Origin: an uncultured virus (IMG/VR IMGVR_UViG_3300002122_000002)
Taxonomy: Duplodnaviria > Heunggongvirae > Uroviricota > Caudoviricetes
Direction: 5' to 3' (one strand)
DNA: 20,000 bases
IMG/VR virus record: IMGVR_UViG_3300002122_000002
The position numbers were made by a program, and so were the translations under genes. The notes under the pieces are model-generated. The model searched no databases, was not told the DNA's origin, and was given only the letters and a program-made list of their open reading frames with translations. How positions within the stretch are numbered: the first letter of the stretch is position 1; each line of letters opens with the position of its first letter. Positions 6,718 to 20,000 of the stretch are shown here, piece by piece.

Positions 6718-6743
6718 TAGTATCCTCGTATATCGGATAAGTT

Positions 6744-6770: not shown

Positions 6771-6777
6771 TATTTCC

Positions 6778-7131
6778 TTACTCCGGGCTCAAGTCCTCTG
6801 ATGAGAAACTTGCATCCGGGAACAGCCGGCTCAGGATCGGCTTAGCAAGATACTGATAACCATTAGCCGCGGCTGAGACCGCTAACACTGTGGCGTATAC
6901 GATCATACCCACTGGAATGAAGACCGGGAAGAAATACGCGGCCACCACCAGTGCGCCCTCAACGCCAGCAATTGCTAGGGCGATTCGGCCTGTAACCACC
7001 GGGTCATTCGCTACCCCCAAGACCTTTAGGGCCTGTGTGAGTGCGAAGATTCCCAGCGCCATAGCTCCGGCCAGGGCTACTACTGCATCGCCATCTACTT
7101 GTAGCGATGCCACCAACTCTGCTAGACTCAT
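6778..7131 (-). CDS. Three-TM membrane protein, holin-like
   Basis: AGGAGGT SD; three hydrophobic helices; LTQALK and AANGYQ resemble the LvqavK / asGlYd signatures of some holins. Confidence 0.55.
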   Translation of the reverse strand: MSLAELVASLQVDGDAVVALAGAMALGIFALTQALKVLGVANDPVVTGRIALAIAGVEGALVVAAYFFPVFIPVGMIVYATVLAVSAAANGYQYLAKPILSRLFPDASFSSEDLSPE

Positions 7132-7151
7132 AGTTTTACCTCCTATTTGTC

Positions 7152-7625
7152 TTAGCTACGGTCGTACCGATTCATAAGGACAGCCAGCACCCGAGCAGCA
7201 TTCCACGCATCATCCTCGGCATGGTGCTGGCTTCCATAGAATCTTCCAGTTGTAATCTCTGCCGCCGCTTTAAGTCTAATGGGGCGGTCGAGACCATATA
7301 ATGCGGCATACATTGGAGCGATGTCAATATGAAAGTAGCCGACGGGCATCGCTAACATCGCGTCTTCTGTCTGCCGCTTTAGCTCGTGGCGGTCGTTGGT
7401 TCCCCAACTCGCCCACATACGCTTCTCTGCACCCATGTTCTTTATCATTTCACATGCCTCGAACAGGGAGTGCTTTGGTGATTCCCCAAGTCGAATAAGA
7501 TGGTTCGACTCAGGCTTTGCTGCTAGATACTTACCTTCTTCTGTTTCGATTACTAGGGCTACTCCAATTTCCTTGATGTCGCCACTTTGACGATACTCTA
7601 GATCAAGGACGTAAATCGGCTGCAA
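7152..7625 (-). CDS. DEDDh 3'-5' exonuclease (ERI-1/KapD-like)
   Basis: VLDLEY, IKEIG, WASWGTND, HIDI, HHAEDDAWN; TTG start after GGAG. Confidence 0.85.
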   Translation of the reverse strand: MQPIYVLDLEYRQSGDIKEIGVALVIETEEGKYLAAKPESNHLIRLGESPKHSLFEACEMIKNMGAEKRMWASWGTNDRHELKRQTEDAMLAMPVGYFHIDIAPMYAALYGLDRPIRLKAAAEITTGRFYGSQHHAEDDAWNAARVLAVLMNRYDRS

Positions 7626-8184
7626 GTGTCTGATCTCCTTTGGTTAATCCAGCCGCATAGAGCGCAATCGCGAGCGCATCCGCAGCATTGTGGTTAATTT
7701 CCGGCCAGACTTCAAGCCCGCCCAGCTTCCCACTTCCAAGCGCCGCAGCGCGTATCGTAGCAGGGGGCGCAATAGCAACAGAAACCCCAGTGTAGTGTAA
7801 GCCAAGAACAAAGCCCATACGTATGTGAGCCAAATCCGGTTGTCCATACGGTTCATTAAACGCTGCTCCTTCAACTACCGCGGGTCCTTTCCCATGAAAG
7901 CGAGTGGGGTTGCTCATTAGTTCATACGCCGCAATCCCATATCGCCATTTCTCGTTTGGTTCTTCTTTGGGTAAGGCGCCCTGGAATATCCAGACCTCTC
8001 TCCCGTCTAGTGTAGCTATTCCGAAGTTCCTGCCCGGGTCTACCCCAACTCCTATCCACTTGCGCATTCCAGGAATCTTGGAGTAGGAAACCGTGACCTT
8101 AACTTCCCCCGAGGGGATTTGCCATACCTTCTCGCTAACGGTCTCAAACTTGAATTCGTCCAAGGCCAATGGTTTAGCTGTCAT
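7603..8184 (-). CDS. ruvC: RuvC-like Holliday junction resolvase
   Basis: GVDPG, VVEG, PATIR, HNAADALAIA catalytic motifs. Confidence 0.85.
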   Translation of the reverse strand: MTAKPLALDEFKFETVSEKVWQIPSGEVKVTVSYSKIPGMRKWIGVGVDPGRNFGIATLDGREVWIFQGALPKEEPNEKWRYGIAAYELMSNPTRFHGKGPAVVEGAAFNEPYGQPDLAHIRMGFVLGLHYTGVSVAIAPPATIRAAALGSGKLGGLEVWPEINHNAADALAIALYAAGLTKGDQTLAADLRP

Positions 8185-8623
8185 CCGCCAATCTTAGGAG
8201 TGCGGCAACCAACGCCATTTCTGCCTTAGAGACTCCAAGCTCTTCCATGATCGACACTACGTTCTTGTCAGCTTCGTAGTACGCTTCCTTGGTTGTGTTA
8301 CGTTCCTTCATAAGTTCTTGAAAGGCTGTATTCTCCTGAATCAAGAAGTTAGCAAGCATAGTACGATACTGTGCTTCATACTCCGGCATTGGGGTAGTGC
8401 CGTCAGCCAGCAATACCGGGTTTGGGTTCTGCCATTTGATCTCAGGATTCTGCTGTAGGTTGGTGTAGATAAACGCCTGTAGGTCTTGGAGCCGCTGCTC
8501 GGCATCCTCGTAGGCATACTTAGCCTCAGCTTGTTTTGTGCGCGCGATCTTGACATCCACAAGCAGGGTCTCGACGCGCTTCATCAGTTCCCCTGCACGA
8601 TTCTGCAATCCAGCTACATTCAT
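8174..8623 (-). CDS. Hypothetical coiled-coil protein
   Basis: Helical heptad-like composition; overlaps both neighbours; SD present. Confidence 0.7.
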   Translation of the reverse strand: MNVAGLQNRAGELMKRVETLLVDVKIARTKQAEAKYAYEDAEQRLQDLQAFIYTNLQQNPEIKWQNPNPVLLADGTTPMPEYEAQYRTMLANFLIQENTAFQELMKERNTTKEAYYEADKNVVSIMEELGVSKAEMALVAALLRLADDS

Positions 8624-9429
8624 TCTTCGTCTCCTCTTCTACGTTCGGTATAGTATTTTTCCCATCCGGGAATTTGCCAGCACACGTGTTTAAAATCACA
8701 ACTGTTACAGGTATAGGTTCCGATATTTTTGGGGTAGTTACCTGTATCACGTGCATGCTTCATTAGCCCCGCCGCGGCTACCAAAGCTTGGTCGTCGTCG
8801 GCACTCTTGTAGTAGTCGTAAGCTTCGACAGTTTCGTACTCTGGAATGACCACATATTTCATCTTGTTTGGCCACTCTTTTAGTATATCACTCTTATAGG
8901 GTGGTGTCAAGTAAATAGGTCCCTGCCACCCTTTGGCCCCCACGTAAATGAGTTCCCCGCCGGGCAATTTGGTGGTATTCCAGAGTTTACTACTCGTCTT
9001 CCAATCTATCAGGACACTCTCGCCTTCGGGAGTCTCGGCTATTACATCTATGATCCCAAAGAGTTGCATGTCTTCAGTCAGCGGCGCTATGTGCTTGACC
9101 TCAGTGGCGAGAATGCGATAGCCCTTTTTCTCTATCCAATTAAGTGCACGTTCAGCCCGCGTCATTACTTCCATCGACGGTATAGATTCATAAGTTATGG
9201 CTACTGGAGGCTTGCCTTGCTCAAGACTTTTCTCGATAACCTCATGCACAGCTATGCCAAACTTCATGGGCGCGGGCATGAACTCAGGCTTCAAACTCCA
9301 ATGCCGATAGAGATATGCGCGGTATGCACATCCGCTGAAGAACTTCTCTAATGAAGACTTACTTACTGTGAACATCTGTTGAGACAACTCCTCTTCCAAT
9401 TGTTGCTCCCAAAGCTTATGGAAAGGCAT
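8620..9429 (-). CDS. Cas4-like PD-(D/E)XK exonuclease with predicted Fe-S cluster
   Basis: N-terminal Cys (GCAY), FGIAVHE, ATE, GIIDVI, IDWKTS, QGPIY, C-terminal CNSCDFKHVC; start placed at ATG 9429 just after the recA stop. Confidence 0.85.
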   Translation of the reverse strand: MPFHKLWEQQLEEELSQQMFTVSKSSLEKFFSGCAYRAYLYRHWSLKPEFMPAPMKFGIAVHEVIEKSLEQGKPPVAITYESIPSMEVMTRAERALNWIEKKGYRILATEVKHIAPLTEDMQLFGIIDVIAETPEGESVLIDWKTSSKLWNTTKLPGGELIYVGAKGWQGPIYLTPPYKSDILKEWPNKMKYVVIPEYETVEAYDYYKSADDDQALVAAAGLMKHARDTGNYPKNIGTYTCNSCDFKHVCWQIPGWEKYYTERRRGDEE

Positions 9430-9430
9430 G

Positions 9431-10465
9431 TCACACTGGGTTCTCCTTATTGTATCGAGCCAACGCTTCATAGAAGGGCTCAAAGGTCTTCTGATGCTTC
9501 TCTGGTTCTAGTGCCTGCTCCGCCAGCGTACCAATCCTACCCTGTGACATCCATTTCCACTCTTTGTCGTCGCCATCCATAACTTCAAGTTTGATTGTAT
9601 TATCAGCCTTCGCCAGCCCCAGCTTGATACAATCAGTTACGGCAGTCATTTCCCGACTAATCCCAAAGCCCGGGATAAAATATACCCAGCCCTTGCGGCC
9701 CTTGGCCCCATACTTTAACTTTTGTATGGCAACCTCGGCCACAAAGTTTCCGGTATCCTTTGGCCAGTCGCTCTCTATGCGTCGAATCCACGCCCGCACA
9801 ATAGCTAGGTACTTGGTCTTTCTGCCGCCGGGCGTAGAGAACCCCTGTCCACCGATATTGGGGCTGGTATGGTTGATTACGAAGTACCACTTCGGGTCCT
9901 CGTTCAAGCGCAGCCACGTGTTAACTCGCTTGGCTACATCGTTTAGGGTCTTGGCTTCCTGTCCCATGGTACGTTCTCCAATTGGCTTGGCCCGAGCTAC
10001 TTCGCTTGCAAATGCACCATAGGAGTCTACAATAGCTCCAGATACCTCGTCGTCCAGCAGATAGTCCACCGTTTCCTGTACCATCTTTTCATGGGGGCGG
10101 GGTACTTCCTGCTTCTTCTCAGTCTCCGTATAGTCCACCAAGAAAATCTCGCCGGTATGTCCAGCATTGTGGGTTACGGCCTCAACATATTCTTTATTTA
10201 TGGATGCTTCTAAGTCACAAACTACTATTCGTTTGTTCCCCGCACGACGTCCCACAAGATAGTAAGCAAGAGTGCTTTTTCCTGTGTGCTCATCCCCGTA
10301 GAGTTCAATAATTCCTCTAGACGGTGTTCCCAATTCGCCGCGGAATCCAACGGCCCGATCGAAGGACCAGAGACCGGACGCAGTGCGTTCGACTGGCCGG
10401 AAATTCCCAATGACTCTTTCCGCGCGTCTTCGTATTTCTTCCATTCCTCGTATTTCATCGTTCAT
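9431..10465 (-). CDS. recA: RecA/UvsX-like recombinase
   Basis: SGLWSFDRAVG, IIELYGDEHTGKST (Walker A), DLE, IVDS (Walker B), TPGGRKTKY. Confidence 0.9.
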   Translation of the reverse strand: MNDEIRGMEEIRRRAERVIGNFRPVERTASGLWSFDRAVGFRGELGTPSRGIIELYGDEHTGKSTLAYYLVGRRAGNKRIVVCDLEASINKEYVEAVTHNAGHTGEIFLVDYTETEKKQEVPRPHEKMVQETVDYLLDDEVSGAIVDSYGAFASEVARAKPIGERTMGQEAKTLNDVAKRVNTWLRLNEDPKWYFVINHTSPNIGGQGFSTPGGRKTKYLAIVRAWIRRIESDWPKDTGNFVAEVAIQKLKYGAKGRKGWVYFIPGFGISREMTAVTDCIKLGLAKADNTIKLEVMDGDDKEWKWMSQGRIGTLAEQALEPEKHQKTFEPFYEALARYNKENPV

Positions 10466-10809
10466 TCCTCCACGCTCCGCCCAAGGGCTAGTTCAAGCAA
10501 CATCGCCTGAACGTTGAATAGGATGGCACATAGTAGTGCCACAAGTTCCTTCGTGTTCTCTGGATCAGCCCGCCACGTGAACCACAAGTCCCAAGCATGT
10601 CGAACTAAACTCTTTATAAGTTGTCGGCGGGGCATCCCCTTCTGCCAATTGTCTGCGGTTCTTAGGGTTCCATCGGCCTGCAACCTATGCTTGTGCATGT
10701 ATTCTGCGAATACCCGCATTGCTATTGGAGAAATAAATCCTTCCCAATCTAGCTTATTTTCATCGGTGTCGCGGGTGGCCCCGCTTACGAATGTTCTAAT
10801 TTCTCCCAT
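10462..10809 (-). CDS. dATP/dGTP diphosphohydrolase-like protein (DUF5664-type)
   Basis: FVSGATRDTDENK...NWQKGMP...SLVRH...CAILFN pattern. Confidence 0.7.
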   Translation of the reverse strand: MGEIRTFVSGATRDTDENKLDWEGFISPIAMRVFAEYMHKHRLQADGTLRTADNWQKGMPRRQLIKSLVRHAWDLWFTWRADPENTKELVALLCAILFNVQAMLLELALGRSVEE

Positions 10810-11332
10810 CGTTAATAGCTCCTAACAGTTGATATAGGTCAGACCAGCTATTACCCCGCTTGTCCTGATTCCATGGCCATGCAAGATAGTGTACATCACA
10901 ATCTTTAGATAAGGCAAAGTCAATGGTTATAGGTGAATCATCAATAACCAAACAACCTCGTTCAACAAATTCTTTCTTATTATGTCCAGTATATACCATC
11001 GAGTAGGGCTTTAGTTCATTTATTTCTAGCCACTTGGACAATAGGTGGGCGGTATTTTCCGCTCTATGTGAGGCTACGCAAATTTCATACTCTTTTTGAT
11101 TTAGGACATTGAACAGTTCTGTGGCACCTGAAAATGCTGGATAGTTTATTTGTGTCATATGAACTATATCAACTGCGGCATAGAACTGCTCCTTTGTCAT
11201 ATACTCAAGGAACCAGTTCCAGTTTGACATATCTGTGCCTATTGTTTCTGGGTACAACTTTTGTAGTAACTCAGTTAGTGGATAGTACAGATTCCAGAGA
11301 ATTCCATCTACGTCTACTATAGCTCGTTTCAT
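10796..11332 (-). CDS. HAD-family 5'(3')-deoxyribonucleotidase
   Basis: IVDVDGIL (motif I), VASHR (II), K (III), VIDDSP (IV), AWPWNQ. Confidence 0.85.
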   Translation of the reverse strand: MKRAIVDVDGILWNLYYPLTELLQKLYPETIGTDMSNWNWFLEYMTKEQFYAAVDIVHMTQINYPAFSGATELFNVLNQKEYEICVASHRAENTAHLLSKWLEINELKPYSMVYTGHNKKEFVERGCLVIDDSPITIDFALSKDCDVHYLAWPWNQDKRGNSWSDLYQLLGAINDGRN

Positions 11333-11970
11333 TGATCGTGTATCCCCGACGCTAGTGTAGTTGCTACTGCGGCGTCTATATCTTCATCTCCCGTTTCCGG
11401 GACAAGGAATCCAAACTGTTTAATCTTTCCGCGCGGGCCACGCTTGCAATAAAGCGTACCTTCCGGCGTTCTCCATCTATGAAGACGAGTATTACCAGAA
11501 GTATGAGTATCCCGAACCCGATCCCGTATTTCCAACATCGCTTTAACATCTGGAGCCATTTCGAGATCATCCCAATCCTCCTCTTCAAAGTCGCCCTCAC
11601 GCGCCGCGGCGATCAACTTGATAAGCCCCTCAATTGGCTTGCCAGCCAACCTAGGATGGTCTAGGACAACGTACTGAAAAGCGTTAGCATACTTCATGAA
11701 CGTGTCTTTGGGCACACCCATTTCCCGTTCAACCGCATCCTCTACTCGATCTCCGCCGGTTTCAAACTTGGGCCAAGCCCGCTTAAGTTCATAGAAGAGT
11801 TTGGCTAACTTAACTCCTTTGATACGCCCCTCTCGTATGATATTGCGCCCAAACTCAAATGCTACTTCCGGTGTTCCCGAGAGCAGTGAGAGTTCTATTG
11901 CGCGATCTGTGGTCTCTACTAGTTCCTCCCACTCGTTATTTGAAAGGAACAACGCCGCGTCATTTGCCAT
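11329..11970 (-). CDS. Hypothetical helical protein, possibly DNA-binding
   Basis: 213-aa ORF with GGAG SD, overlapping neighbours; HTH-like VEREMGVPKDTFMKY. Confidence 0.65.
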   Translation of the reverse strand: MANDAALFLSNNEWEELVETTDRAIELSLLSGTPEVAFEFGRNIIREGRIKGVKLAKLFYELKRAWPKFETGGDRVEDAVEREMGVPKDTFMKYANAFQYVVLDHPRLAGKPIEGLIKLIAAAREGDFEEEDWDDLEMAPDVKAMLEIRDRVRDTHTSGNTRLHRWRTPEGTLYCKRGPRGKIKQFGFLVPETGDEDIDAAVATTLASGIHDQ

Positions 11971-12475
11971 GTGTCATTTCTCCAAATCGGGTTATGGCTA
12001 ACCTAACCTCGCCCAGCATATCGAATCCTGTAGAGGCCTTGACCATTGCCATAGCTTGTACATTGGCGGGCAAGACTTCCCTTGGTATCGGCAATCCATT
12101 AAACTCTGCAGCAGAAATGTTCTCTCCTAACAAGACCTGTAACGGATCAGTGCCGGCGATCAGGGCAAACTCTACGCGTAGTAACTCATTCATAAAGGCC
12201 GTAGCGTGAAACCCTGGCTCACATTCCCCCTTCTTCTTCTTGCCGTGTAACCAGAGGTTTGTGAATCTAACCCGTGCCGGGTTGATGCTCGCCCGTTCAA
12301 GCTCTCCCGCTATGATGTTCCCCGCTCGCACTTTCTTGTCTCCGCCACAGAAGGGTGTACCCATTAGCACGTCGAACCAGTCAGGATAATCCCCAACTAC
12401 TAGAATGTTAGTATTGATCGGGCCACGGGAAGACAGTAGAAAGTCTCCACAGTGTGGACACTGTTCTTTAGGCAT
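11960..12475 (-). CDS. Family-4 uracil-DNA-glycosylase-fold protein, catalytically diverged
   Basis: CxxC...GPINTNILVVGDYPD...GTPFCG...AG...FTNL follows the UDG-4 pattern (GEAPG..G.PFvG.aG...yiTN); the C-terminal HP motif is absent. Confidence 0.7.
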   Translation of the reverse strand: MPKEQCPHCGDFLLSSRGPINTNILVVGDYPDWFDVLMGTPFCGGDKKVRAGNIIAGELERASINPARVRFTNLWLHGKKKKGECEPGFHATAFMNELLRVEFALIAGTDPLQVLLGENISAAEFNGLPIPREVLPANVQAMAMVKASTGFDMLGEVRLAITRFGEMTHGK

Positions 12476-14129
12476 TAAGGTCTCTCCAATTCGGTCCCGT
12501 TTTGATTACTAGTTTCGTCGGGACATTTGGCATAAGCTTATGTCCTGCCTCTAACCACGCTTCCGTTACGATTTCCCTGTACTGTGGTATCAGGCCTTTT
12601 GGTACATCCAATACCATTTCATCGTGTACCATAATGTTTACCAGAAATTCTAGTCCTTTGGCCTTGCATAATTCCCGGGTGTAGACCAGAGCCAACTTCG
12701 TGTGGTCTGCTGCCGACCCTTGTATTGGGCCGTTTATTGCGTTCCGTGATGACTGATGGTTGTAAGGGTTTGTCCAAACCCTGCGGCCCGTTACGGTGTT
12801 TACGTAATTTACCCGCTCGGCCTGCCGCTTCTGTCTGTCCATCCAAGCGTGATACTCAGGATAGTGCTGTCGGCGTTTTCGTAGGCCGTCCTCTACTTCC
12901 TCTATATCTAGGTTATGCTCTGTTGCCAATCCCCAGGCGCTCTTGCCATAGTTCAGGCTTAAGTGAATCTTCTTGCCGCGGTCCCGATCTACTCGGAACA
13001 AATCGGCATTTACTTGATGCAGGTCTATTCCATCAATGAGTTCTTGTCGTAGAGTCTTATCCCTAGACAACTGTGCACTATAGCAGGGTTCCTGCTGGTT
13101 CTGGTCTACAACCAATAACTCGTTGCCCGGGCTTGCCAAGAAGTATGAGCGGTAAACCAATCCCTCATCCTTCTTTGGAATGTTCATCATGTTTGGGTCC
13201 GAGCAAGCCATACGGCCAGTCTCAGGTCCTGTAGTCTTCCAGTCCGGGTAAATCAAATTCCCTTCTTCTACATTGGTGGCAACAAACTTAGGACCATACT
13301 TGGCATAGGCGTCTCGGCAATGCCGCGCCCGCAAAATTCCATTTAGGAGTGTAGTCTGATGCTCATTAGCCCCCTTTAGCCAGCCCTCTAAGGACTCTTG
13401 ATCGCAGGATGAATCCTTACGAATCTTCTTAATGCCCGCAGCCTTGAGCGCCGCCTGCACTTGTGGTTGGGATTTCACGTTGAAGCCCAACCCTTCCTGT
13501 ATCCGATGCCCTTCTTCTAATAGAGCTTCGGCGTTTGCAATCCATCCATCTACATCCATGCGAATGGGCTTCATATTCATTACTGCCCACATCGCCGGTT
13601 GATCTATCTCCCAATACCACGGGAACTCATTGGCATACTCATTATAGACTATTTTCCATTGTGCCAGAGCTACCTGTCGAGTTACATCAGCGTCTTGTAT
13701 AGCGTACTGTGCCATATCTGGCGTAAGCTCTGTAGCATCCACAAATTCGTTCCGAATATCCTTCTCTAGGTACAGTCTAAGATGTCTCCGTGCTAGGGCC
13801 TGGAGGCTGAAGCTCTGATACCATCCCCCGAATAGGTCCTGCTCCACCATCATTGTGTCCCATACTGCCGGCTCCCATCCCATCGGCCAAATCCCGTGAT
13901 GGGTTAATTGGCGTATGTCGTAAATTGCATTCTGAAGTGCAATTACACCATCGTACTCCTTCAAGGCCAAAAGGTACTTCTGGCTCTCTTCCTTGTCGGC
14001 AGATAGAAAATTGTTTGTCGGGACCCCCAAACCAGATGTTGTTAGACATGCAAATTTACCTCCTGGTCTATGTAAATTTCCATAGTGTTGAAACCATTCT
14101 GTATCTAATCCAACTAAGTTAACTGACAT
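12468..14129 (-). CDS. polA: Family A DNA polymerase (3'-5' exo + pol, no 5'-3' exo)
   Basis: ExoI LDTE, ExoII NAIYD, ExoIII YAIQD; TGR..SDPN..NIP, motif A DQNQQE, motif B RxxxKxxxLxxxYG, NGPIQGSAAD, motif C VHDE. Confidence 0.95.
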   Translation of the reverse strand: MSVNLVGLDTEWFQHYGNLHRPGGKFACLTTSGLGVPTNNFLSADKEESQKYLLALKEYDGVIALQNAIYDIRQLTHHGIWPMGWEPAVWDTMMVEQDLFGGWYQSFSLQALARRHLRLYLEKDIRNEFVDATELTPDMAQYAIQDADVTRQVALAQWKIVYNEYANEFPWYWEIDQPAMWAVMNMKPIRMDVDGWIANAEALLEEGHRIQEGLGFNVKSQPQVQAALKAAGIKKIRKDSSCDQESLEGWLKGANEHQTTLLNGILRARHCRDAYAKYGPKFVATNVEEGNLIYPDWKTTGPETGRMACSDPNMMNIPKKDEGLVYRSYFLASPGNELLVVDQNQQEPCYSAQLSRDKTLRQELIDGIDLHQVNADLFRVDRDRGKKIHLSLNYGKSAWGLATEHNLDIEEVEDGLRKRRQHYPEYHAWMDRQKRQAERVNYVNTVTGRRVWTNPYNHQSSRNAINGPIQGSAADHTKLALVYTRELCKAKGLEFLVNIMVHDEMVLDVPKGLIPQYREIVTEAWLEAGHKLMPNVPTKLVIKTGPNWRDLNA

Positions 14130-14586
14130 GGGACCAGGACTTTCTATTGACTATTTTTCCCACGTTTGAACGGCATACTCTAAACATTTTTCCTATTATA
14201 TCGTGTGTAATTCTAATCTTAGCAAGTCTTCGGATTTCTCTAATGTCTTTTTCAGTAAGTTTGGCTTGCCCATTTAGCATTCCAATTGTGCCGCCTGGAC
14301 GGCGTAACCATTCCTCTACTGACTTTTTGATTTGTTGTTTTCGTCTTGCACTCATTAAAGGATATAGCATAACCATCCATTGATATGCCAATATGCCATG
14401 AATTTGTACTGTATAGAATGTTCTTCCTGTTGGGGTATGTCCACTAGTTAAGTTTCCCCGTATTTTTTGTGTTACTTTATTTGCAGAATCTAAATCTACA
14501 GTACCATAGCGTAGGCGTAACGAGTTAGCAAGATCAAAACTTCCTTCTCCCTCTAATAGCCCCACTAACCAATATAGAGTTTTCAT
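14119..14586 (-). mobile_element. Free-standing single-motif LAGLIDADG homing endonuclease with C-terminal HTH
   Basis: WLVGLLEGEGSF motif; LYPLMSARRKQQI; C-terminal NGQAKLTEKDIREIR...VCRSNVGKIVNRKSWSHV; visibly AT-rich relative to its flanks. Confidence 0.8.
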
Positions 14587-14590
14587 GTTG

Positions 14591-15751
14591 TCAACCAGAG
14601 TAGTGAGGGTACCATTCTAAAGTCCGGGAACCCCAAGTTCCATTTTCATCATTCCATCGAACTTGTGCGGCTCCGAGACTGCCCCGCTTTAGTCCCAGCC
14701 GACTGGCCCCAAACTTTAGGTAGCCCATTCCAGGTACATAAGGAAGCCCCGCCTTGTTCTTGCTGCTCATGTCTATATCAAGTAGTGCCGGGTTGTGAAC
14801 AATGATAATTAGGGATGCCTCATGTTCTGCGATGCCAGAATACCAAATTGAACTTACATCTGCTTCTCCGCCGACATAGTTTCTAGATACTCCAGCGATC
14901 AGAAGGGTGGGTATTTCACTGTTCTTAGACAGGTCGCCCATGCCCATGTAAATACTACTCATTGACTCTACGCCCGGCGGTCTACCATACAGCATCTTGC
15001 TGGCATAGTCTACGCCTATTAGCTTCAAGTCATATTCCGATGCCAGCCGCATCGCTTCGCTCTGGACTCGGGCCTCATTCATTGGTTCATCTATGATACG
15101 AATGAAGTCCATCTGTTCATTAGTTAGACCTTCTACTTGAAGCAGTCGGGCCTTCGCTAGTTCCTTTCTCATTTCCAGCGAGAAGAACGCCGAATATAGT
15201 CCGCGCTTTGCGTTCTCTGCGAGTAATCGGAGTAGAAGGGTTGTCTTACCAAGCTTCGCTGGTCCTGATACAATCGTGAGCCCAGCATAAGGAAGCCCGC
15301 CGGCATTCGCGTCAATAGGTTCGTAGCCACAGGGAGCCCAAATCTCGTCTTCCCTAAGAAGAGCAACGTCCGCCATGCTAACAAAGCCGCTCTCCCCTCT
15401 ATCCAGTTGTGATGCAAGTTGTAGAATCTTGTTGCTATCCTCACCCTCTCCCTCCTTCAACTTCTCCCCTATTCGAACAAGCCGTTTTCCTACGTCCGCC
15501 TGAACAGCGCGGGTCTGCAATAGTCGTGCCCAATCTGCGGCTTCATCAATGCTAATGCCCTCTGCTGCTAGTTCTGCAGTCCGCATAGCATCAAAGCCAT
15601 GGTTGGCCTTTAGCTCAGGAAGCCCCATCCGCCCCACATCTTGCAGGGCGGAGTTGTAGGGCTCAGAGAAATGCTCAGGGTTGAAGACGCCCGGCTCGGC
15701 CCCCTTTAGGACCAAACCAAAGCATACCTCGCTTGTTCTGCGCTGGTTCAT
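14591..15751 (-). CDS. dnaB: DnaB-like replicative helicase
   Basis: GPAKLGKTT (Walker A), FFSLEM, LIGVDY (Walker B), YSGIAEHEA. Confidence 0.85.
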   Translation of the reverse strand: MNQRRTSEVCFGLVLKGAEPGVFNPEHFSEPYNSALQDVGRMGLPELKANHGFDAMRTAELAAEGISIDEAADWARLLQTRAVQADVGKRLVRIGEKLKEGEGEDSNKILQLASQLDRGESGFVSMADVALLREDEIWAPCGYEPIDANAGGLPYAGLTIVSGPAKLGKTTLLLRLLAENAKRGLYSAFFSLEMRKELAKARLLQVEGLTNEQMDFIRIIDEPMNEARVQSEAMRLASEYDLKLIGVDYASKMLYGRPPGVESMSSIYMGMGDLSKNSEIPTLLIAGVSRNYVGGEADVSSIWYSGIAEHEASLIIIVHNPALLDIDMSSKNKAGLPYVPGMGYLKFGASRLGLKRGSLGAAQVRWNDENGTWGSRTLEWYPHYSG

Positions 15752-15754
15752 AAG

Positions 15755-16012
15755 TTACTTTTTCTTCTTCTTTGCTGGTGGTTTATAGATGCCAAGTGAC
15801 TTTAGAATGAAGGCTTCAAAATCTGAGTCTCTAGAGAACAGAACGTCATTAATGGCATCTGCCCAATAGACTTCCTTAAAGCCTTCGATTATTCCCTGTT
15901 CTATAGCTTTCTCGATTTGTGGGGCTACTCTAGTTGCTATTGCCTCAATATCAATCTTGTTCAAAACCTTCTTTGCAACTGCATCGTTTACTGCCTGTTC
16001 TACTGATTTCAT
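15755..16012 (-). CDS. Hypothetical protein with poly-Lys C-terminus
   Basis: AAGGAG SD, directly downstream of the predicted promoter. Confidence 0.75.
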   Translation of the reverse strand: MKSVEQAVNDAVAKKVLNKIDIEAIATRVAPQIEKAIEQGIIEGFKEVYWADAINDVLFSRDSDFEAFILKSLGIYKPPAKKKKK

Positions 16013-16032
16013 GTTGTTCTCTCCTTAACTAT

Positions 16033-16061
16033 ATACTAGCACACATGTCAAGGTTTGTCAA
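16033..16061 (-). promoter_or_regulatory. Sigma70-type promoter driving the helicase-polA operon
   Basis: TTGACA (16061-16056) - 17 nt - TAGTAT (16038-16033) with extended -10 TGn; second TTGACA 10 nt downstream of the first. Confidence 0.75.
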
Positions 16062-16290
16062 GTGCCTCTTGGGCGGCAACCCGACGACGAAATTCATTTC
16101 GTATGCTGGGCGGCAAACGCCTAATTTCTCTATCCATCGCCTCCAGCTTGGCTTCTAGGGCGGCGACGGACTCGCTCAACTTAATAAGTAACACAATCTC
16201 GGGCATCAGATAGGTGTCATCCGAATATCTGGCTTTCTCTTCTATCTGCAGAATAAGACGAAATAACTTAGTGCTGGCTGATTCAGTCAT
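16048..16290 (-). CDS. Hypothetical 80-aa helical protein
   Basis: AAAGGAG SD 8 nt before ATG; co-oriented with the operon. Confidence 0.65.
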   Translation of the reverse strand: MTESASTKLFRLILQIEEKARYSDDTYLMPEIVLLIKLSESVAALEAKLEAMDREIRRLPPSIRNEFRRRVAAQEALDKP

Positions 16291-16300
16291 TCTCCCTGCT

Positions 16301-16777
16301 CCTTTGTAAGAAGTGAAATCTCGCGGACGAAGTTTACCTACGGTAAGTCTACTTCTGCATCCGGGATGATTGTTGATGGACGGAAGATCACCCGGTAGTG
16401 GTATAAATCAGTGTCGGCACTTTCGATTTGTTCGGCAAAGTAAGTCACGTTGTCAGATAGGCCTAGGAAGTGCTTCTTGAATGCGTTAGGTCCAGTCTGA
16501 CATGTTACAGATAACTCACCCACTGCATCGTAATTCCCTAATGAGCATGTACCTTCAATCACCAGAATGTAATCACCATTGATGCCATTATAAAACACAA
16601 TGCGTCTGGTAATCTGAAAGTTATCGGCAGCAAGCGATAGATTGCGAGACGCCACGTCCGCTGGCTGGGCACACCCTACAAGAAATGCTGTAAACAACGC
16701 TACTGCAATCAACATCTTCTTCATTCTATGTTCTCCTCTAGTTTAATCCGTCCGCGAGATTTCACTTCCTGCAAAAG
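16301..16777. repeat. Long-range inverted repeat bracketing the lipoprotein gene (arms 16301-16331 and 16747-16777)
   Basis: Perfect 20-bp core GAAGTGAAATCTCGCGGACG (16310-16329) / CGTCCGCGAGATTTCACTTC (16749-16768); 31 positions with 3 G-U and 1 mismatch in the minus-strand RNA. Confidence 0.95.
16338..16724 (-). CDS. Conserved phage lipoprotein (family often annotated as RDF-like/beta-sandwich lipoprotein)
   Basis: Signal peptide with lipobox LVGC; ADVASRNLSLAADNF..RRIVFYNGI..KKHFLGLSDNVTYFAEQ..YRVIFRP recalls a widespread phage family; GAGGAG SD. Confidence 0.8.
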   Translation of the reverse strand: MKKMLIAVALFTAFLVGCAQPADVASRNLSLAADNFQITRRIVFYNGINGDYILVIEGTCSLGNYDAVGELSVTCQTGPNAFKKHFLGLSDNVTYFAEQIESADTDLYHYRVIFRPSTIIPDAEVDLP

Positions 16778-16921
16778 TGTTTCTGGATCATCGTATGCCA
16801 TCTGTACATGTACAGGACATAACGGCATAAAGGGTAGGTTTTCTATTCCATGTAATGCCGTTGAGCGCCCCGGACAAGCTGCACACTTAGGCATAGTGAA
16901 GACTTCCTTCCCGTCAGACAC
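16721..16921 (-). CDS. Small zinc-finger-like protein
   Basis: CAAC...CPVH; overlaps the primase stop and the lipoprotein start. Confidence 0.65.
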   Translation of the reverse strand: MSDGKEVFTMPKCAACPGRSTALHGIENLPFMPLCPVHVQMAYDDPETLLQEVKSRGRIKLEENIE

Positions 16922-17780
16922 CGATTAACTCCCTTAATAGTTGATCTGATTTACCGGCCATGGCATAGTCGTTAGGGTCTTTAAATCCGTCAGGATAGGC
17001 AAGCAGTTTCACGTGCCCTCTCCAATCTAACCCAGCGGCAAGTTCATATGCCTGTGATTCCTCGCCTTTATCTGGAATTATCATTATTTTCTTCGAGTAT
17101 TTGTTTAACCACTTCGGATCGAAACTCTTGGCTCCACCTGTTGTAGTTAGGACTGGCAAACGTAATTCGGATAGCGTCAGTGCGTCTATCATACCAAACA
17201 CTATGTATAACGGCCCAGGGTCCCGCAAAGTCAAACTCCAATCTGGGCAATAAACCATTGATCTCTGTCCTGACGGTTGAGAAAAACGTATTCCTGTTAG
17301 CTTCTCCGCTTGCGGTCCAGACCGAATAATTATCCCAATTATCTCGTTGTCCTCCGATTTTACGGGCAAAACGAGCCAACCTTCGTGCCAACCAAGTTCG
17401 CATGGTTCTATTCTCCCTTCAATGCCGCGCGTCTCAGGATACCATCTAAACGACGCATTGCGGGTTAAGACTGAATGTGCTTTAGTCACAAACTCTACCT
17501 GCTCTTCCTCGGTCGTAGGCAGGTATGGGGGACGGCCAATTGGAATGTCCCGTCGGCCTCTCGCTGTAGTGCCGGGACTGGATAACTCCGCATACAGCTT
17601 GTAGTTTGGGCCGTGGGTTGCACATTCTCCCAAACACACCCACCAGCCATCCGGGTAAACAAGTAGGCTTGCCTCTCGATCGTCATGCCAGGGGCAATTG
17701 GTCAGCAAATACCCGGCACTCATCAAATCGGCGTTCTCGCCGAGTAGTTCTCGAATTTGCTCAAATGTTACTTTGCTCAC
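16914..17780 (-). CDS. DnaG-like primase (CHC2 zinc finger + TOPRIM), non-canonical active site
   Basis: CPWHDDREASL...WWVCLGEC zinc finger; IVFGMIDAL, IIPD, KDPND; probable GTG start at 17780. Confidence 0.8.
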   Translation of the reverse strand: MSKVTFEQIRELLGENADLMSAGYLLTNCPWHDDREASLLVYPDGWWVCLGECATHGPNYKLYAELSSPGTTARGRRDIPIGRPPYLPTTEEEQVEFVTKAHSVLTRNASFRWYPETRGIEGRIEPCELGWHEGWLVLPVKSEDNEIIGIIIRSGPQAEKLTGIRFSQPSGQRSMVYCPDWSLTLRDPGPLYIVFGMIDALTLSELRLPVLTTTGGAKSFDPKWLNKYSKKIMIIPDKGEESQAYELAAGLDWRGHVKLLAYPDGFKDPNDYAMAGKSDQLLRELIGV

Positions 17781-17950
17781 TAAGGACCCCAATTTTCAGA
17801 TTGAAACATAAGAGCGTTTTGTAAACGCTCTAAAGCTGCACTGCCCGGTGTTACAATTGATTCATCCATAAGCATACCAATTGCTTCTTCTAAAGCTTCT
17901 CTAGCTATGTTTCGTTCTTCAATAGCCGCTTCAGTACAGTTATCACACAT
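17780..17950 (-). CDS. Hypothetical 56-aa protein
   Basis: GGAG 6 nt before ATG 17950 (alternative ATG 17962); MCDNC...; stop overlaps the primase start. Confidence 0.55.
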   Translation of the reverse strand: MCDNCTEAAIEERNIAREALEEAIGMLMDESIVTPGSAALERLQNALMFQSENWGP

Positions 17951-17952
17951 GT

Positions 17953-18781
17953 TAGTCTCCATTGGGGAGCAGCCAAGCTCCCAATTTAGATTTCTACCCC
18001 AATAGGGGCGTCTGCTAATTCTCGTTGTAGCCAACCATCCGCGAAGGTACCACGAAATGCCACATTTCGCCCTTGCAGAATGTTCTGTAACTCGCCCAGC
18101 ACATTTTCGCTTGGCGTCAGAGAGTCAGCATCAAAGTCGTAGCCGGTGACAGTAAGGAAGTTGATTAGCTGATCGTACCAGAACTTGCGGTCCCATACGA
18201 TGTCAACCAATCCGGTCTGTGGGTTACGTTCGAACATGTAAACCAGAGGCCGCACGGCTTCCATACCGGCCAGTTCCGTTTCCTTGCCGATCTCTGTTGC
18301 TTCCACTCGCAGTATCGCATAGAACTCGGAGTGCGGAGGGTTAGTCCAAGATGCTCCAGTTGCCGGGATAGTAACCCGCTCTGCATCCTTATTCTTGATG
18401 GTTGGAGCTAATGCCTGTCCGGTTTCTGCGTCAACTCGGGCAGCAAATCTAGAGAAGCGTAGGAGAAAGGTTCCCTCCAGCGGTCTCACTGACTTGATGT
18501 TGTCTTCCTCTGCCGTTAGCTCGATGAACACATCGTTGATGGGTTTCAATATCCAGCTTCCAAACTCCCGCGTTACGTCTGCGGGGTCCAGACGGAAGAC
18601 TTCCTTAAAGCCTTCCTTGTCGAAAATTGTAACCTTTATTTCCTTCCAGTCTTCGGGCGTTACTGCTTCTACTGGAAGAGTTGCTATACTCCCGCGCCCG
18701 CGCGGTCCATACACCTTACGTTGTTTTGATCCTGTACCCATAGTTTTCTCCTATTGTTTGGCTGCTCCCGAACGGAGACTA
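17953..18781. repeat. Long-range inverted repeat bracketing the SSB-like gene (arms 17953-17976 and 18758-18781)
   Basis: TAGTCTCCATTGGGGAGCAGCCAA vs TTGGCTGCTCCCGAACGGAGACTA: 22/24 Watson-Crick, plus one G-U and one C.C in the minus-strand RNA. Confidence 0.92.
17986..18741 (-). CDS. Hypothetical replication-module protein, candidate ssDNA-binding protein
   Basis: AGGAG SD; position between helicase and primase genes; weak resemblance to DUF669-type SSBs (PLEGTF..., LQGRNVAF). The CDS is solid but the function is a guess. Confidence 0.45.
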   Translation of the reverse strand: MGTGSKQRKVYGPRGRGSIATLPVEAVTPEDWKEIKVTIFDKEGFKEVFRLDPADVTREFGSWILKPINDVFIELTAEEDNIKSVRPLEGTFLLRFSRFAARVDAETGQALAPTIKNKDAERVTIPATGASWTNPPHSEFYAILRVEATEIGKETELAGMEAVRPLVYMFERNPQTGLVDIVWDRKFWYDQLINFLTVTGYDFDADSLTPSENVLGELQNILQGRNVAFRGTFADGWLQRELADAPIGVEI

Positions 18782-18859
18782 GTCTCTTGACTTTACCTCA
18801 ATATAATTATATATAGACCAAATCAGAAAAAGCACTGAAACTAATAGTAAAATTGTCAT
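18779..18859 (-). CDS. 26-aa single-TM peptide; not in ORF track
   Basis: MTILLLVSVLFLIWSIYNYIEVKSRD*; TAAATG junction with the upstream gene, GAGGA SD 8 nt upstream. Confidence 0.6.
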   Translation of the reverse strand: MTILLLVSVLFLIWSIYNYIEVKSRD

Positions 18860-19357
18860 TTAGTTTTCCTCGTCTTCTGGTCCCCAGGGCGTTCTATCAC
18901 TCAAATCAGGACCGTTATCGTTTGGGGCTGAACTTGCATACCATCGAGTTGCTTCTTCTGCTCTCTCTTTCATCGACAGTTTATTCCATCTAGCTACTTC
19001 CTTATTGTGCTCTAGCCTATTGGTCTCCAGTATGTAGTTATGCTTATCTTTAGCGCAGGTTGGACAAGGTAGCCGATATATATCATCGTGTAAAATATGT
19101 GTATAATAATTTTTCCTAAAGTCTGGATCGCGCTCTTCCGCTTCCGTCCATTGCCAACGGTAAAAATCCTTACCACAGATAGGACAGACTAGAGGTTCAT
19201 CGTAGTGAATGTAATGGCCCGCCGAGTCTTTGATAGTAAGTCCTAGGTCCGAACGTATGGCTTTACTGTTCTTGCCGGGTCTCTGGAAAAATCTGTATAT
19301 CTGAATTACCCCATACCAGAATGCCGCCCATATTAATACGTTAGTCCAGAATTCCAT
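18860..19357 (-). CDS. Membrane-anchored zinc-ribbon protein
   Basis: N-terminal TM helix; CPIC...CPTC; AAGGAG SD. Confidence 0.7.
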   Translation of the reverse strand: MEFWTNVLIWAAFWYGVIQIYRFFQRPGKNSKAIRSDLGLTIKDSAGHYIHYDEPLVCPICGKDFYRWQWTEAEERDPDFRKNYYTHILHDDIYRLPCPTCAKDKHNYILETNRLEHNKEVARWNKLSMKERAEEATRWYASSAPNDNGPDLSDRTPWGPEDEEN

Positions 19358-20000
19358 TAATTATCTCTCCTTGTACTTGCATTTCTATTTGTTCCATATC
19401 TATTGTTGCACTCAAGATTTGACGCTTTTGATTAATCGTATAATCCATTGGCTCATCGAAAGTACCCACAGCCATGAGATAGTACGCAGTGACAGCATTC
19501 TTTTGTCCAATACGATCAAGGCGTCCCTCTGCTTGGAATTCCAAAGCAGGAGTCCACTGTCTCTCAACAAAGAGGATTGTATTGCTTTCAATGTCTCCAA
19601 TTCCAAATAAGTCAATACCCTCTCCGCCTGCTTTGTTAATAACTGCCACTCGCGGACGTAATCCTGTCTGGAAGCCGAATGTAAGGGCGTCTCGTCTCTC
19701 GGGCGAAAGTCTCCCATCAATAGAAAAGGAACCATATTCTGCCAACTCCCTCTTTAAGTAATCAACTACATCTAGATGATGAGCATACAGTACGATCTTA
19801 ACATTGGGTTCCGACTGCTCAAAGAAATCATGCACCCACTCTACCGCCACTTTAGCTTTCTCCCGCCCAATTATGTGCCACGCATCCATGATCTTAGTCA
19901 TGGCATTGGTTCGGTTAATCCCAATCAAAGCTTCTCTGTATTCCTCCGTCTTGATGTCCGCCGGAAGAAGAACCCTTTGTAGGGATGGTAATTCCTCCAG
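19341..20000 (-). CDS. SNF2/HARP-like helicase, C-terminal domain (5' truncated by the window)
   Basis: Frame open to 20000 (LEELPSLQR...); KIVLYAHH, IDG, AGGEGIDL, FVERQWTP, QAEGRLDRIGQ. Confidence 0.9.
   Translation of the reverse strand: MEELPSLQRVLLPADIKTEEYREALIGINRTNAMTKIMDAWHIIGREKAKVAVEWVHDFFEQSEPNVKIVLYAHHLDVVDYLKRELAEYGSFSIDGRLSPERRDALTFGFQTGLRPRVAVINKAGGEGIDLFGIGDIESNTILFVERQWTPALEFQAEGRLDRIGQKNAVTAYYLMAVGTFDEPMDYTINQKRQILSATIDMEQIEMQVQGEIINGILD

What the first reader, a model, noticed from the sequence alone, without database searches (positions are those of the whole stretch)
16301..18781. Candidate gene-looping RNA system: single genes bracketed by long-range stems that also mask the next gene's SD
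Seen: two unrelated-sequence inverted repeats (31 and 24 positions) each enclose exactly one gene that has its own strong SD inside the loop. A weaker third case is at 6721-7182. The geometry is the same each time: the 5' arm sits in the last codons or stop of the preceding ORF, and the 3' arm overlaps the SD of the following ORF. In the two strong stems, 4 of 6 non-Watson-Crick positions are G-U in the sense (minus) mRNA, and the pairs share no sequence, which favours RNA structure over recombinase sites. Known precedents: long-range translational coupling (MS2 Min Jou interaction, E. coli rplJ-rplL) and RNase III processing stems around rRNAs. Inference: either (a) gene n+1 is translationally coupled to gene n-1 across a looped-out, independently expressed gene n, or (b) a dsRNA nuclease releases end-paired, stabilised (possibly circularised) monocistronic mRNAs for high-demand proteins. 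I know of no description of this as a repeated phage operon design.
Basis: partly seen in the sequence, partly recalled or inferred. Interest (0 to 1): 0.88.

Follow-up and report, generated by a model that had tools for sequence, protein, structure and literature searches.

The report
Phage genes looped out by RNA helices
In an uncultured phage's replication operon, two genes each sit between a pair of complementary sequences that most likely pair in the messenger RNA. Related phages keep one of these helices through compensating mutations, so it is a selected structure whose job (cutting the message or controlling the next gene) is still untested.

Summary
Both strong inverted repeats are real and exceed chance. 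Helix 1 (16301-16331 / 16747-16777, 31 positions) encloses a VG64-family lipoprotein gene. Helix 2 (17953-17976 / 18758-18781, 24 positions) encloses a 251-aa gene for a probable OB-fold protein. The third case (6721-7182) scores like chance. Of 32 genes in the window, only these two are bracketed.

Helix 2 is conserved in metagenomic relatives. Six other arm sequences keep a 23-29 bp helix at the same place. A 10-bp core is never broken, and 13 of 24 pairs show changes on both sides. The upstream gene's stop codon always lies at or in the 5' arm. The next gene's start or ribosome-binding site usually lies in or beside the 3' arm.

Helix 1 surrounds a gene that this lineage acquired. None of 79 other VG64 loci has such a helix.

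My reading is that these are selected long-range mRNA helices. Most likely they are RNase III-type processing and end-clamping stems that also hide the next gene's ribosome-binding site. Translational coupling without cleavage is a close rival. DNA inversion and a mobile-element origin are poorly supported. I found no strand bias in G-U pairs and no RNA data, so the mechanism is inferred.

This scan has already noted similar gene-in-a-loop layouts in other phages.

The parts
16747..16777 (-). Helix 1, 5' arm (31 positions), inside codons 49-59 of the upstream 66-aa ORF
16301..16331 (-). Helix 1, 3' arm. It starts 6 nt after the VG64 stop. Its outer end overlaps AAGGAG (16304-16299), the SD of the 80-aa ORF (ATG at 16290).
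16338..16724 (-). Enclosed gene 1: 128-aa lipoprotein-like protein, Pfam PF25682 Phage_VG64 / phrog_478. It has its own SD, GAGGAG at 16738-16733. The gene is absent from syntenic relatives.
16721..16921 (-). Upstream 66-aa ORF. Its TGA stop overlaps the VG64 ATG. Its C-terminal tail, which holds the 5' arm, aligns with homologues in L013/L017.
16048..16290 (-). Downstream 80-aa ORF whose SD is partly inside helix 1
18758..18781 (-). Helix 2, 5' arm (24 positions). Its first three bases are the TAG stop of the upstream 26-aa ORF. The inner 10 nt (GAGCAGCCAA) form the conserved core.
17953..17976 (-). Helix 2, 3' arm. It starts 9 nt after the p251 stop and contains GGAG (17960-17957), the SD of the 56-aa ORF (ATG at 17950).
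17986..18741 (-). Enclosed gene 2: 251-aa protein with no Pfam/PHROG family. The model shows two beta-rich OB-like domains. It has its own SD, AGGAGA at 18752-18747.
18779..18859 (-). 26-aa hydrophobic ORF that ends at the outer edge of the 5' arm. Positions 18782-18865, which hold it, are missing in a coexisting haplotype and in contig G002. In that form the 165-aa ORF's TAG takes the same place.
17977..17982 (-). GGGAGC just after the p251 stop. This is a partial copy of the 5' arm, conserved as TGGRR in 7 of 7 aligned sequences. It could form a local alternative hairpin with GCTCCC of the 3' arm.
17780..17950 (-). Downstream 56-aa ORF. In relatives the primase or another small gene takes this place.
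16914..17792 (-). DnaG-like primase between the two helices. It served as a synteny anchor.

Best explanation
Both inverted repeats are long-range helices of the sense (minus-strand) polycistronic mRNA of the phage's replication operon. Each helix closes one cistron, or two in relative L013, into a loop together with that cistron's own ribosome-binding site. At 23-31 near-perfect base pairs, the helices are most likely substrates of the host's double-strand RNase (RNase III). They would work like the leader-trailer stalks of rRNA operons and the long-range mRNA duplexes mapped in B. subtilis. Cleavage in the outer, variable half would release the enclosed message. Its two ends would stay clamped by the inner, GC-rich, conserved core, which should protect them. 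The same cut would free the next cistron's ribosome-binding site, which the intact helix hides. Shown: the helices exist, exceed chance, and helix 2 is maintained by compensating changes. Inferred: that they form in RNA in vivo, that they are cut, and what the cut does.
For: (1) The helices exceed chance and sit at gene boundaries.
(2) Helix 2 is conserved. Of 17 related loci with both flanks, 8 have a full helix scoring 18.5-22.5 (L004, L006, L007, L008, L009, L011, L012, L013). L010 has the 10-bp core at the end of its contig. L019 has a 15-bp helix of unrelated GC-rich sequence.
(3) RNAalifold finds the helix independently. The 10 core pairs have 0 broken cells and 3 of them changed on both sides.
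(4) My count on alignment A2 gives 89% of 154 cells paired and 13 of 24 pairs with a double change. None of 1000 column shuffles reach either value, and slid registers give 30-45%.
(5) Helix length stays at 23-29 bp in relatives. That is more than needed to hide an RBS but matches a dsRNA-nuclease substrate.
(6) The inner core next to the gene is the conserved, GC-rich part, and the outer half is free to vary.
(7) In L013 the same helix encloses two genes, each with its own SD. This fits a processing unit better than coupling across one gene.
(8) Both helices are in the MFE and centroid folds, with z -2.55 and -5.61.
(9) Precedent: B. subtilis RNase III cuts 10-36 bp duplexes with up to 505 nt between the sites (PMC11780869, section 24 read).
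(10) DNA-level readings are weak. No recombinase was found. The arms are unique in the genome. The contigs that span the arms in four runs read straight through: both helix-1 arms and the helix-2 3' arm in X1, X4 and X9 (X2's two contigs between them), the helix-2 5' arm only in X9.
Against: There is no RNA evidence at all: no listed run holding the sequence is on record as RNA. No cleavage sites are known, the host is unknown, and I found no phage RNase III or RNA ligase. Non-Watson-Crick positions show no sense-strand G-U bias: 10 G-U, 8 A-C, 9 other, and the duplex energies of the two strands are mixed. Pairing in RNA is therefore inferred only from the fact that the genes lie on one strand. 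Seven more distant relatives (L015, L016, L021-L025) have no helix. Near-identical contig G002 carries two uncompensated changes in the 5' arm. In L009 and L012 the next gene's start codon lies inside the 3' arm, so a cut there could damage that message. Helix 1 has no relatives in which conservation could be tested. Covariation could in principle also come from concerted evolution of a DNA inverted repeat.
Confidence: 0.45

Rival explanations
1. Translational coupling without cleavage. The helix hides the ribosome-binding site of cistron n+1. Ribosomes finishing cistron n-1 run into the 5' arm, melt the helix and so license cistron n+1. The looped-out cistron n is translated independently from its own strong SD. 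This is the MS2 Min Jou logic stretched over 415-970 nt.
For: The upstream ORF's stop lies -4 to +13 nt from the outer edge of the 5' arm in 7 of 7 sequences, and likewise in L013. This holds although the upstream gene differs: an SNF2 helicase, a 165-aa ORF, a 26-aa ORF or others. The downstream start lies -12 to +5 nt from the outer end of the 3' arm in 6 of 6 with a call of 30 codons or more. By my reading of those sequences, 4 of 6 downstream genes lack a clear SD. In helix 1 the ribosome on the 66-aa ORF must pass through the whole 5' arm. Measured from the conserved core, stop and start sit at the same helical level in 5 of 6 lineages, differing by 0-4 nt. A conserved post-stop TGGRR element could hold the 3' arm in an open state.
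Against: Tight gene packing alone could place stops and starts in the arms. The stop/start match is not significant: 48 of 720 permutations do as well, or 12 of 120 without L006. In L006 the next SD lies outside the helix. A 23-31 bp near-perfect helix is far stronger than RBS masking needs. The local alternative hairpin is predicted in only 4 of 8 sequences. Relatives without the helix simply abut the primase on p251.
Confidence: 0.3
2. The repeat acts at the DNA level. It could be an invertible segment, a terminal-inverted-repeat cargo element, or a scar of how the gene was inserted. One version of the scar idea is insertion into the loop of an older local hairpin, or an inverted duplication of the target. 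Pairing would then be kept by concerted evolution, not by RNA function.
For: The VG64 gene inside helix 1 is an acquired gene. It is absent from 9 related loci that span primase to DnaB. The family occurs in unrelated phages at 54-65% identity. The 5' arm of helix 1 lies in ancestral coding sequence of the 66-aa ORF, so the 3' arm looks like an inverted copy made in one event. An 84-nt indel sits exactly at the outer edge of helix 2's 5' arm. The mismatch spectrum shows no RNA-strand bias.
Against: p251 keeps its place in relatives with and without the helix, so helix 2 does not mark an insertion. None of 79 other VG64 loci in IMG/VR, and none of 5 in cultured phages, has flanking repeats above the null. 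I found no recombinase, transposase or invertase family among the 10 + 80 ORFs scanned. The arms are single-copy, and I saw no target-site duplication. Unitigs of X1, X4 and X9 pass through both helix-1 arms with no strand-change joint. These are contigs only, so rare forms could be missed. Inverted repeats of this length are a recombination liability, so their retention across 56-77% protein divergence argues for a benefit.
Confidence: 0.1
3. The pairs are chance complementarity with no function.
For: Under lax scoring on the 58.9-kb contig, helix 2 (21.5) is within the shuffle range, where the best pair averaged 20.5 with a maximum of 23.5. The third case is chance-level.
Against: Helix 1 scores 26.5-29.0, above every shuffle. 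Helix 2 recurs at the same place with different letters in six other arm sets.
Confidence: 0.01

Closest known systems
Long-range intramolecular RNase III targets in bacterial mRNAs (B. subtilis; PMC11780869, abstract, find passages and section 24 read)
   Same: In both, duplexes form between mRNA segments hundreds of nucleotides apart. The paper reports 10-36 bp duplexes with up to 505 nt between cleavage sites. Here the helices are 24-31 bp with 415 and 781 nt between the arms.
   Different: Here the arms sit exactly at cistron boundaries, so a whole gene with its SD is looped out. The element is in a phage operon, and cleavage is not shown.
Leader-trailer processing stalks flanking 16S and 23S rRNA, cut by RNase III (from my own knowledge)
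   Same: A functional unit is bracketed by a long helix formed from its two flanks. The expected product has paired ends.
   Different: The enclosed unit here is a translated cistron, not a stable RNA. The neighbours' stop codon and RBS are built into the arms.
MS2 Min Jou interaction and other long-range RBS-masking couplings in RNA phages (from my own knowledge; Qbeta example PMC2978339 seen only as a search listing/abstract)
   Same: The RBS of a downstream cistron pairs with sequence that ribosomes on an upstream cistron must traverse.
   Different: Here an entire, independently translated cistron lies inside the loop. The helix is much longer and near-perfect. The genome is dsDNA.
5'-3' end pairing of single mRNAs: icaR 5'/3'-UTR interaction in S. 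aureus (PMC3868564, search listing/abstract only) and hok mRNA tac-fbi pairing (recalled)
   Same: A 3' segment carrying a CUCCC-like stretch pairs with a 5' segment of the same message across the coding region. In icaR this creates an RNase III site.
   Different: In those cases the pairing hides the gene's own SD and shuts it off. Here the enclosed gene's SD stays in the loop, and it is the neighbour's RBS that is covered.
RNase III sites of phage T7 early mRNA (recalled)
   Same: A phage polycistronic message is cut into stable units whose ends are held in helix remnants.
   Different: T7 sites are local hairpins between genes, not helices made from the two flanks of a gene.

Membership tests
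RNase III long-range processing helix (rRNA-stalk / mRNA long-range target type) | A helix of about 20 bp or more formed by the two flanks of the unit | tested here: met
   31 and 24 positions in the window and 23-29 bp in relatives. Both helices are in the MFE and centroid folds.
RNase III long-range processing helix (rRNA-stalk / mRNA long-range target type) | Pairing maintained in evolution (covariation) | tested here: met
   For helix 2, 13 of 24 pairs changed on both sides and 0 of 1000 shuffles reach that. The 10 core pairs are never broken. Helix 1 has no relatives to test.
RNase III long-range processing helix (rRNA-stalk / mRNA long-range target type) | Paired, RNase III-dependent cleavages with 2-nt 3' overhangs | not testable with these tools
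   No RNA run holds the sequence and the host is unknown.
Long-range translational coupling by RBS masking (MS2 Min Jou type) | The downstream cistron's RBS or start is base-paired | tested here: met
   In the window, the GGAG of the 56-aa ORF is inside the 3' arm, and 4 of 6 bases of AAGGAG of the 80-aa ORF (16304-16301) are inside helix 1. In relatives the start lies within -12 to +5 nt of the arm end in 6 of 6 with a call. In L006 the SD is outside.
Long-range translational coupling by RBS masking (MS2 Min Jou type) | The complementary segment is traversed or reached by ribosomes of the upstream cistron | tested here: met
   In helix 1 the arm lies in codons 49-59 of the 66-aa ORF. In helix 2 the upstream stop lies -4 to +13 nt from the arm's edge in 7 of 7 sequences, and likewise in L013.
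Long-range translational coupling by RBS masking (MS2 Min Jou type) | Downstream translation depends on upstream translation | not testable with these tools
   This needs reporter experiments.
Invertible DNA segment (inverton) | A recombinase or invertase that acts on the repeats | tested here: inconclusive
   No such Pfam family was found among the 10 window ORFs and 80 ORFs of the 58.9-kb contig scanned. Small ORFs and 15 of the 95 called ORFs were not scanned (8 of the 15 are the operon ORFs already scanned).
Invertible DNA segment (inverton) | Both orientations present in DNA reads | tested here: inconclusive
   Contigs of 4 runs show one orientation and no strand-change joint. Contigs drop rare forms.
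Terminal-inverted-repeat mobile element (MITE/IS-like cargo element) | Several copies with the same ends, and a target-site duplication | tested here: not met
   The arms are unique in the 58.9-kb genome and in 115 loci apart from orthologous sites. No direct repeat flanks the arms (read). p251 is syntenic in relatives. None of 79 other VG64 loci has such ends.

The most novel reading that the evidence does not exclude
The helix acts as a bridge for ribosomes. By pairing the flanks of a looped-out cistron, it sets the stop codon of cistron n-1 directly opposite the start codon of cistron n+1. Measured from the conserved core, the two sit at the same level, within 0-4 nt, in 5 of 6 lineages. 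A terminating ribosome would melt just enough helix to expose the opposite start and re-initiate there. This would be a bacterial counterpart of ribosome shunting past a structured element. It would let phages insert or swap whole genes (VG64, the 64-aa gene in L013, the 26-aa ORF) without breaking the coupling of the core replication genes.
Probability: 0.15. Interest if true: 0.85.

Novelty: new variant of a known kind. Interest (0 to 1): 0.6.

Why it matters
Long-range duplexes in bacterial mRNAs have only recently been mapped as RNase III targets, and their logic is poorly understood. Here a phage lineage keeps, through compensating mutations, a helix placed exactly at cistron boundaries, with the neighbours' stop codon and ribosome-binding site built into the arms. 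A second such helix surrounds a newly acquired gene.

If these helices are processing or coupling devices, they would explain two things. One is how phages set different outputs for adjacent genes on one transcript. The other is how accessory genes can be dropped into tightly coupled operons without harm. They would also give synthetic biology a compact insulator for operon design.

The case is directly testable with a three-gene reporter in rnc+ and rnc- hosts. Earlier notes of this scan report the same layout in several unrelated uncultured phages, so it may be a general feature of phage operons. My three literature searches found no description of it.

Tried and rejected
1. The third case, 6721-7182, scores 8.5 against a null median of 7.5. 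The sequence shows only a local GC hairpin after the stop. Rejected.

2. G-U strand bias as evidence for sense RNA: 10 G-U, 8 A-C and 9 other on A2, and sense and antisense duplex energies are mixed. No support either way.

3. Does the helix travel with the VG64 gene? It does not: 0 of 5 cultured phages and 0 of 79 other IMG/VR loci.

4. Stop-opposite-start geometry is suggestive but not significant: 48 of 720 permutations do as well, or 12 of 120 without L006.

5. A local alternative hairpin (post-stop GGRRS with GCTCC) is predicted in 4 of 8 sequences only. I keep it as a lead.

6. No RNA holder was listed among 21 runs. Contigs of 4 DNA runs gave no inversion joint and one 84-nt indel variant.

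7. Rfam gave no family in the window. The promoter/terminator scan gave numbers no higher than in shuffles.

8. More relatives. IMG/VR returned only the phage's own contig for the primase, p251, the A1 profile and p80. The genome collection returned none.

9. The function of p251. There was no hit in Pfam or PHROGs, none in PDB sequences, and no Foldseek hit at E <= 0.001. The only lead is the OB-fold resemblance. VIA-align matches PrgE at Z 7.1 (rmsd 3.4, 100 aligned) and gives OB-fold rows at Z 4-5 for residues 6-88, and the tool warns that Z under 8 is common. The Atlas gives a DUF669 cluster at 0.85, which counts as a lead only. The phage has a canonical SSB elsewhere, so p251 is not simply 'the SSB'.

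10. The count of structure pairs failed three times because I gave a structure string of the wrong length. I replaced it with fold_alignment and my own count with shuffles and slid registers.

11. No whole genome is held for the window. I used the near-identical contig G002 instead.

Full report
**What the window is.** The window is part of an uncultured tailed phage. No whole genome is held for it. Two near-identical virus records exist, G002 at 58.9 kb and G001 at 49.9 kb.

From 5860 to 20000 all genes lie on the minus strand. The operon encodes these products:
- an SNF2-type helicase;
- a 165-aa protein;
- a 251-aa protein (p251);
- a 56-aa protein;
- a DnaG-like primase;
- a 66-aa protein;
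- a 128-aa VG64-family lipoprotein-like protein;
- 80-aa and 85-aa proteins;
- a DnaB-like helicase;
- a family A DNA polymerase;
- a RecA-like protein;
- a PD-(D/E)XK nuclease.

The DNA occurs in 20 groundwater and soil DNA runs from 13 studies.

**The observation.** The repeat finder reports arms 16303-16329/16749-16775 (27 nt, 93%) and 17953-17976/18758-18781 (24 nt, 92%). With G-U allowed on the sense strand, the first grows to 31 positions. My scores are 26.5 and 20.5. The next best pair in the window scores 16.0. In 100 Markov shuffles the best pair averaged 14.9, with a maximum of 19.0.

I scanned all 32 genes, pairing the 80 nt before each start with the 80 nt after each stop. Only genes 16338-16724 and 17986-18741 stand out. 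The control of 930 mismatched flank pairs had a maximum of 14.

On the 58.9-kb contig with laxer scoring, helix 1 (29.0) is far above every shuffle, but helix 2 (21.5) is within the shuffle range: the best pair averaged 20.5 with a maximum of 23.5 over 30 shuffles. Nothing else stands out. Both helices appear in the MFE and centroid folds of the enclosed segments, with z -2.55 and -5.61.

- Each enclosed gene has its own SD in the loop.
- The 5' arm lies in the end of the preceding ORF: codons 49-59 of the 66-aa ORF for helix 1, and the TAG of a 26-aa ORF for helix 2.
- The 3' arm covers all or part of the next ORF's SD.

**Conservation of helix 2.** p251 has 28 database homologues, none named. 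A profile scan found 23 metagenomic loci. Seventeen of them hold both flanks.
- Eight have a full helix at the same place, scoring 18.5-22.5 and 23-29 bp long: L004 (the same phage), L006, L007, L008, L009, L011, L012 and L013.
- L010 has the 10-bp core at the end of its contig.
- L018 has only the 3' core.
- L019, whose protein is 37% identical, has a 15-bp helix of unrelated GC-rich sequence.
- Seven loci have none: L015, L016 and L021-L025, with 32-49% protein identity.

The inner 10 bp (GAGCRRYCAA / TTGRYYGCTC) is always paired and covaries at three positions. The outer 12-16 bp differ in sequence yet still pair.

RNAalifold predicts the helix without being told where it is. On alignment A2 (7 sequences), 89% of 154 cells form standard pairs and 13 of 24 pairs changed on both sides. 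None of 1000 column shuffles reach either value, and slid registers give 30-45%.

This shows selection for pairing. It does not show which strand or which molecule pairs. Non-Watson-Crick cells are 10 G-U, 8 A-C and 9 other, and the strand energies are mixed.

**Neighbours vary but the geometry stays.** Upstream of the 5' arm lies either the SNF2 gene itself (L006, L009, L012), a 165-aa ORF (L007, G002), a 26-aa ORF (the window) or other ORFs (L011, L013). Downstream lies either the primase (L007, L009, L011, L013), a 56-aa ORF (the window) or other small genes (L006, L012).

The upstream stop lies -4 to +13 nt from the arm's outer edge in 7 of 7 sequences, and likewise in L013. The downstream start lies -12 to +5 nt from the outer end of the 3' arm in 6 of 6 with a call. 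Measured from the core, stop and start sit at the same level, within 0-4 nt, in 5 of 6 lineages; L006 is the exception. The permutation test is not significant: 48 of 720 do as well.

Contigs of three runs carry a second haplotype that lacks 18782-18865. This 84-nt stretch is the 26-aa ORF, and it sits exactly at the outer edge of the 5' arm. In that form, which is also the form in G002, the 165-aa ORF's TAG takes the same position in the arm.

In L013 an extra 64-aa gene with its own SD lies inside the loop, so the helix encloses two genes.

**Helix 1 surrounds an acquired gene.** The enclosed protein matches Pfam Phage_VG64 (E 1e-48) and phrog_478. It is 54-65% identical to proteins of Mycobacterium, Sinorhizobium, Acinetobacter and Proteus phages. 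None of the 9 related loci that span primase to DnaB has it, or the 80-aa ORF.

The 5' arm lies in a tail of the 66-aa ORF that still aligns with homologues in L013/L017. The 3' arm therefore looks like a later inverted copy of ancestral coding sequence.

The helix does not travel with the gene. None of 5 cultured phages and none of 79 other IMG/VR loci have flanking complementarity above the null. Helix 1 cannot be tested for covariation, because only near-identical copies of this phage carry it.

**What p251 is.**
- No family matches.
- The AlphaFold model is confident, with pLDDT 86.2 and pTM 0.79.
- Foldseek finds nothing at E <= 0.001. Its weak rows include several OB-fold and ssDNA-binding proteins.
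- VIA-align gives PrgE of pCF10 at Z 7.1 (rmsd 3.4, 100 aligned, residues 86-249). For residues 6-88 it gives OB-fold rows at Z 4-5. The tool warns that Z under 8 can be a common arrangement.
- The Atlas lead is a DUF669 cluster at 0.85, below the trust level.
- The phage has a canonical SSB elsewhere.

I call p251 a probable two-domain OB-fold protein of the replication module. ssDNA binding is an inference.

**Mechanism.** I rank an RNase III-type processing and end-clamping helix first, at 0.45. The reasons are these:
- The helix length is held at 23-31 bp.
- The conserved GC-rich core is the part that would stay on the enclosed message after cleavage.
- The helix can enclose two genes.
- There is a mapped precedent for RNase III cutting 10-36 bp duplexes up to 505 nt apart in B. 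subtilis mRNAs (PMC11780869, section 24).

Coupling by RBS masking without cleavage comes second, at 0.3. It rests on the stop and RBS geometry. The two readings are not exclusive.

DNA-level readings (inversion, a TIR element, an insertion scar) get 0.1. I found no recombinase. The arms are single-copy. p251 is syntenic in relatives. Contigs read straight through the arms. However, helix 1's origin as an inverted copy beside an acquired gene remains unexplained.

Nothing supports circular mRNAs.

**Literature.** Three full-text searches returned no paper describing cistron-bracketing helices in dsDNA phage operons. They did return the B. subtilis RNase III map, which I read in part. They also returned the icaR 5'-3' UTR paper and the Qbeta long-range paper, which I saw only as listings and abstracts. 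Absence from these searches is not proof that it is absent from print.

**Earlier notes of this scan.** A word look-up, made after my own analysis, lists several AI notes on other phages with the same gene-in-a-loop layout. One reports 13 helices in one operon and another reports five. One says the pairing is conserved in hundreds of relatives, and another says the units are swapped between relatives. I did not test them. They moved my ranking slightly towards processing, because coupling across a loop is harder to generalise to operons in which every gene is bracketed.

**Verdict.** The structural interpretation is supported by covariation for helix 2. The mechanism is inferred. I class it as a new variant of a known kind (long-range mRNA helices), with interest 0.6.

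Noticed in passing
window 16338-16724 (-); L027-L032, L036-L115: The VG64/phrog_478 protein has a lipoprotein-type signal (MKKMLIAVALFTAFLVGC) and conserved cysteines. It is 54-65% identical across phages of Mycobacterium, Sinorhizobium, Acinetobacter and Proteus. In IMG/VR, 566 of 585 pattern matches encode relatives. RefSeq and PHROGs name it 'recombination directionality factor', which sits oddly with a secreted lipoprotein.
   Followed up: partly
window 18782-18865: An 84-nt presence/absence polymorphism holds a 26-aa hydrophobic ORF and sits exactly at the outer edge of helix 2's 5' arm. Both forms coexist in runs X1, X2 and X4. G002 has the short form, with two further changes in the arm.
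   Followed up: partly
window 17977-17985 (-); A2 columns 865-871: TGGRR(S) directly after the p251 stop is conserved in 7 of 7 aligned sequences and repeats part of the 5' arm. With GCTCCC of the 3' arm it makes a local hairpin. The scan flags this hairpin as terminator-like on the plus strand, 17965-17982.
   Followed up: partly
L013:2756-3776: In this 118-kb relative the same helix (arms 2756-2781 / 3751-3776) encloses an extra 64-aa gene (2797-2991) as well as the p251 homologue.
   Followed up: yes
window 16033-16061 (-): The best sigma-70-like promoter match in the region (TTGACA, 17 nt, TAGTAT with an upstream TG) lies at the end of the 80-aa ORF, just ahead of the 85-aa ORF and DnaB. 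The number of matches in the region is no higher than in shuffles.
   Followed up: no
window 10462-10809 (-): A 115-aa ORF matches the N-terminal domain of dATP/dGTP diphosphohydrolase (PF18909, E 2.6e-6). I recall this domain from phages that modify their DNA bases. No PurZ-like gene appeared among the ORFs scanned.
   Followed up: no
window 5800-5843: A 17-bp hairpin (GAAATGAAAAGGCCCAC / GTGGGCCTTTTGTTTTC) lies between the convergent plus-strand and minus-strand gene blocks. It is probably a two-way terminator.
   Followed up: no
window 18597-18615 and about 15865-15885: p251 and the 85-aa ORF share a 19-nt stretch encoding GFKEV. It produced a spurious 'joint' in the read layout.
   Followed up: no
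G002 (L033:921-8999, L034:3123-3476, L034:7171-14185): The near-identical contig also encodes a 2692-aa ORF with no Pfam match, a canonical SSB, an amidoligase and a class-I glutamine amidotransferase, NeuB, and methyltransferases. tRNA-like sequences lie around 39-43 kb.
   Followed up: no
window 3669, 4346, 4357, 4372, 4400: There are five single N bases in the plus-strand gene block.
   Followed up: no
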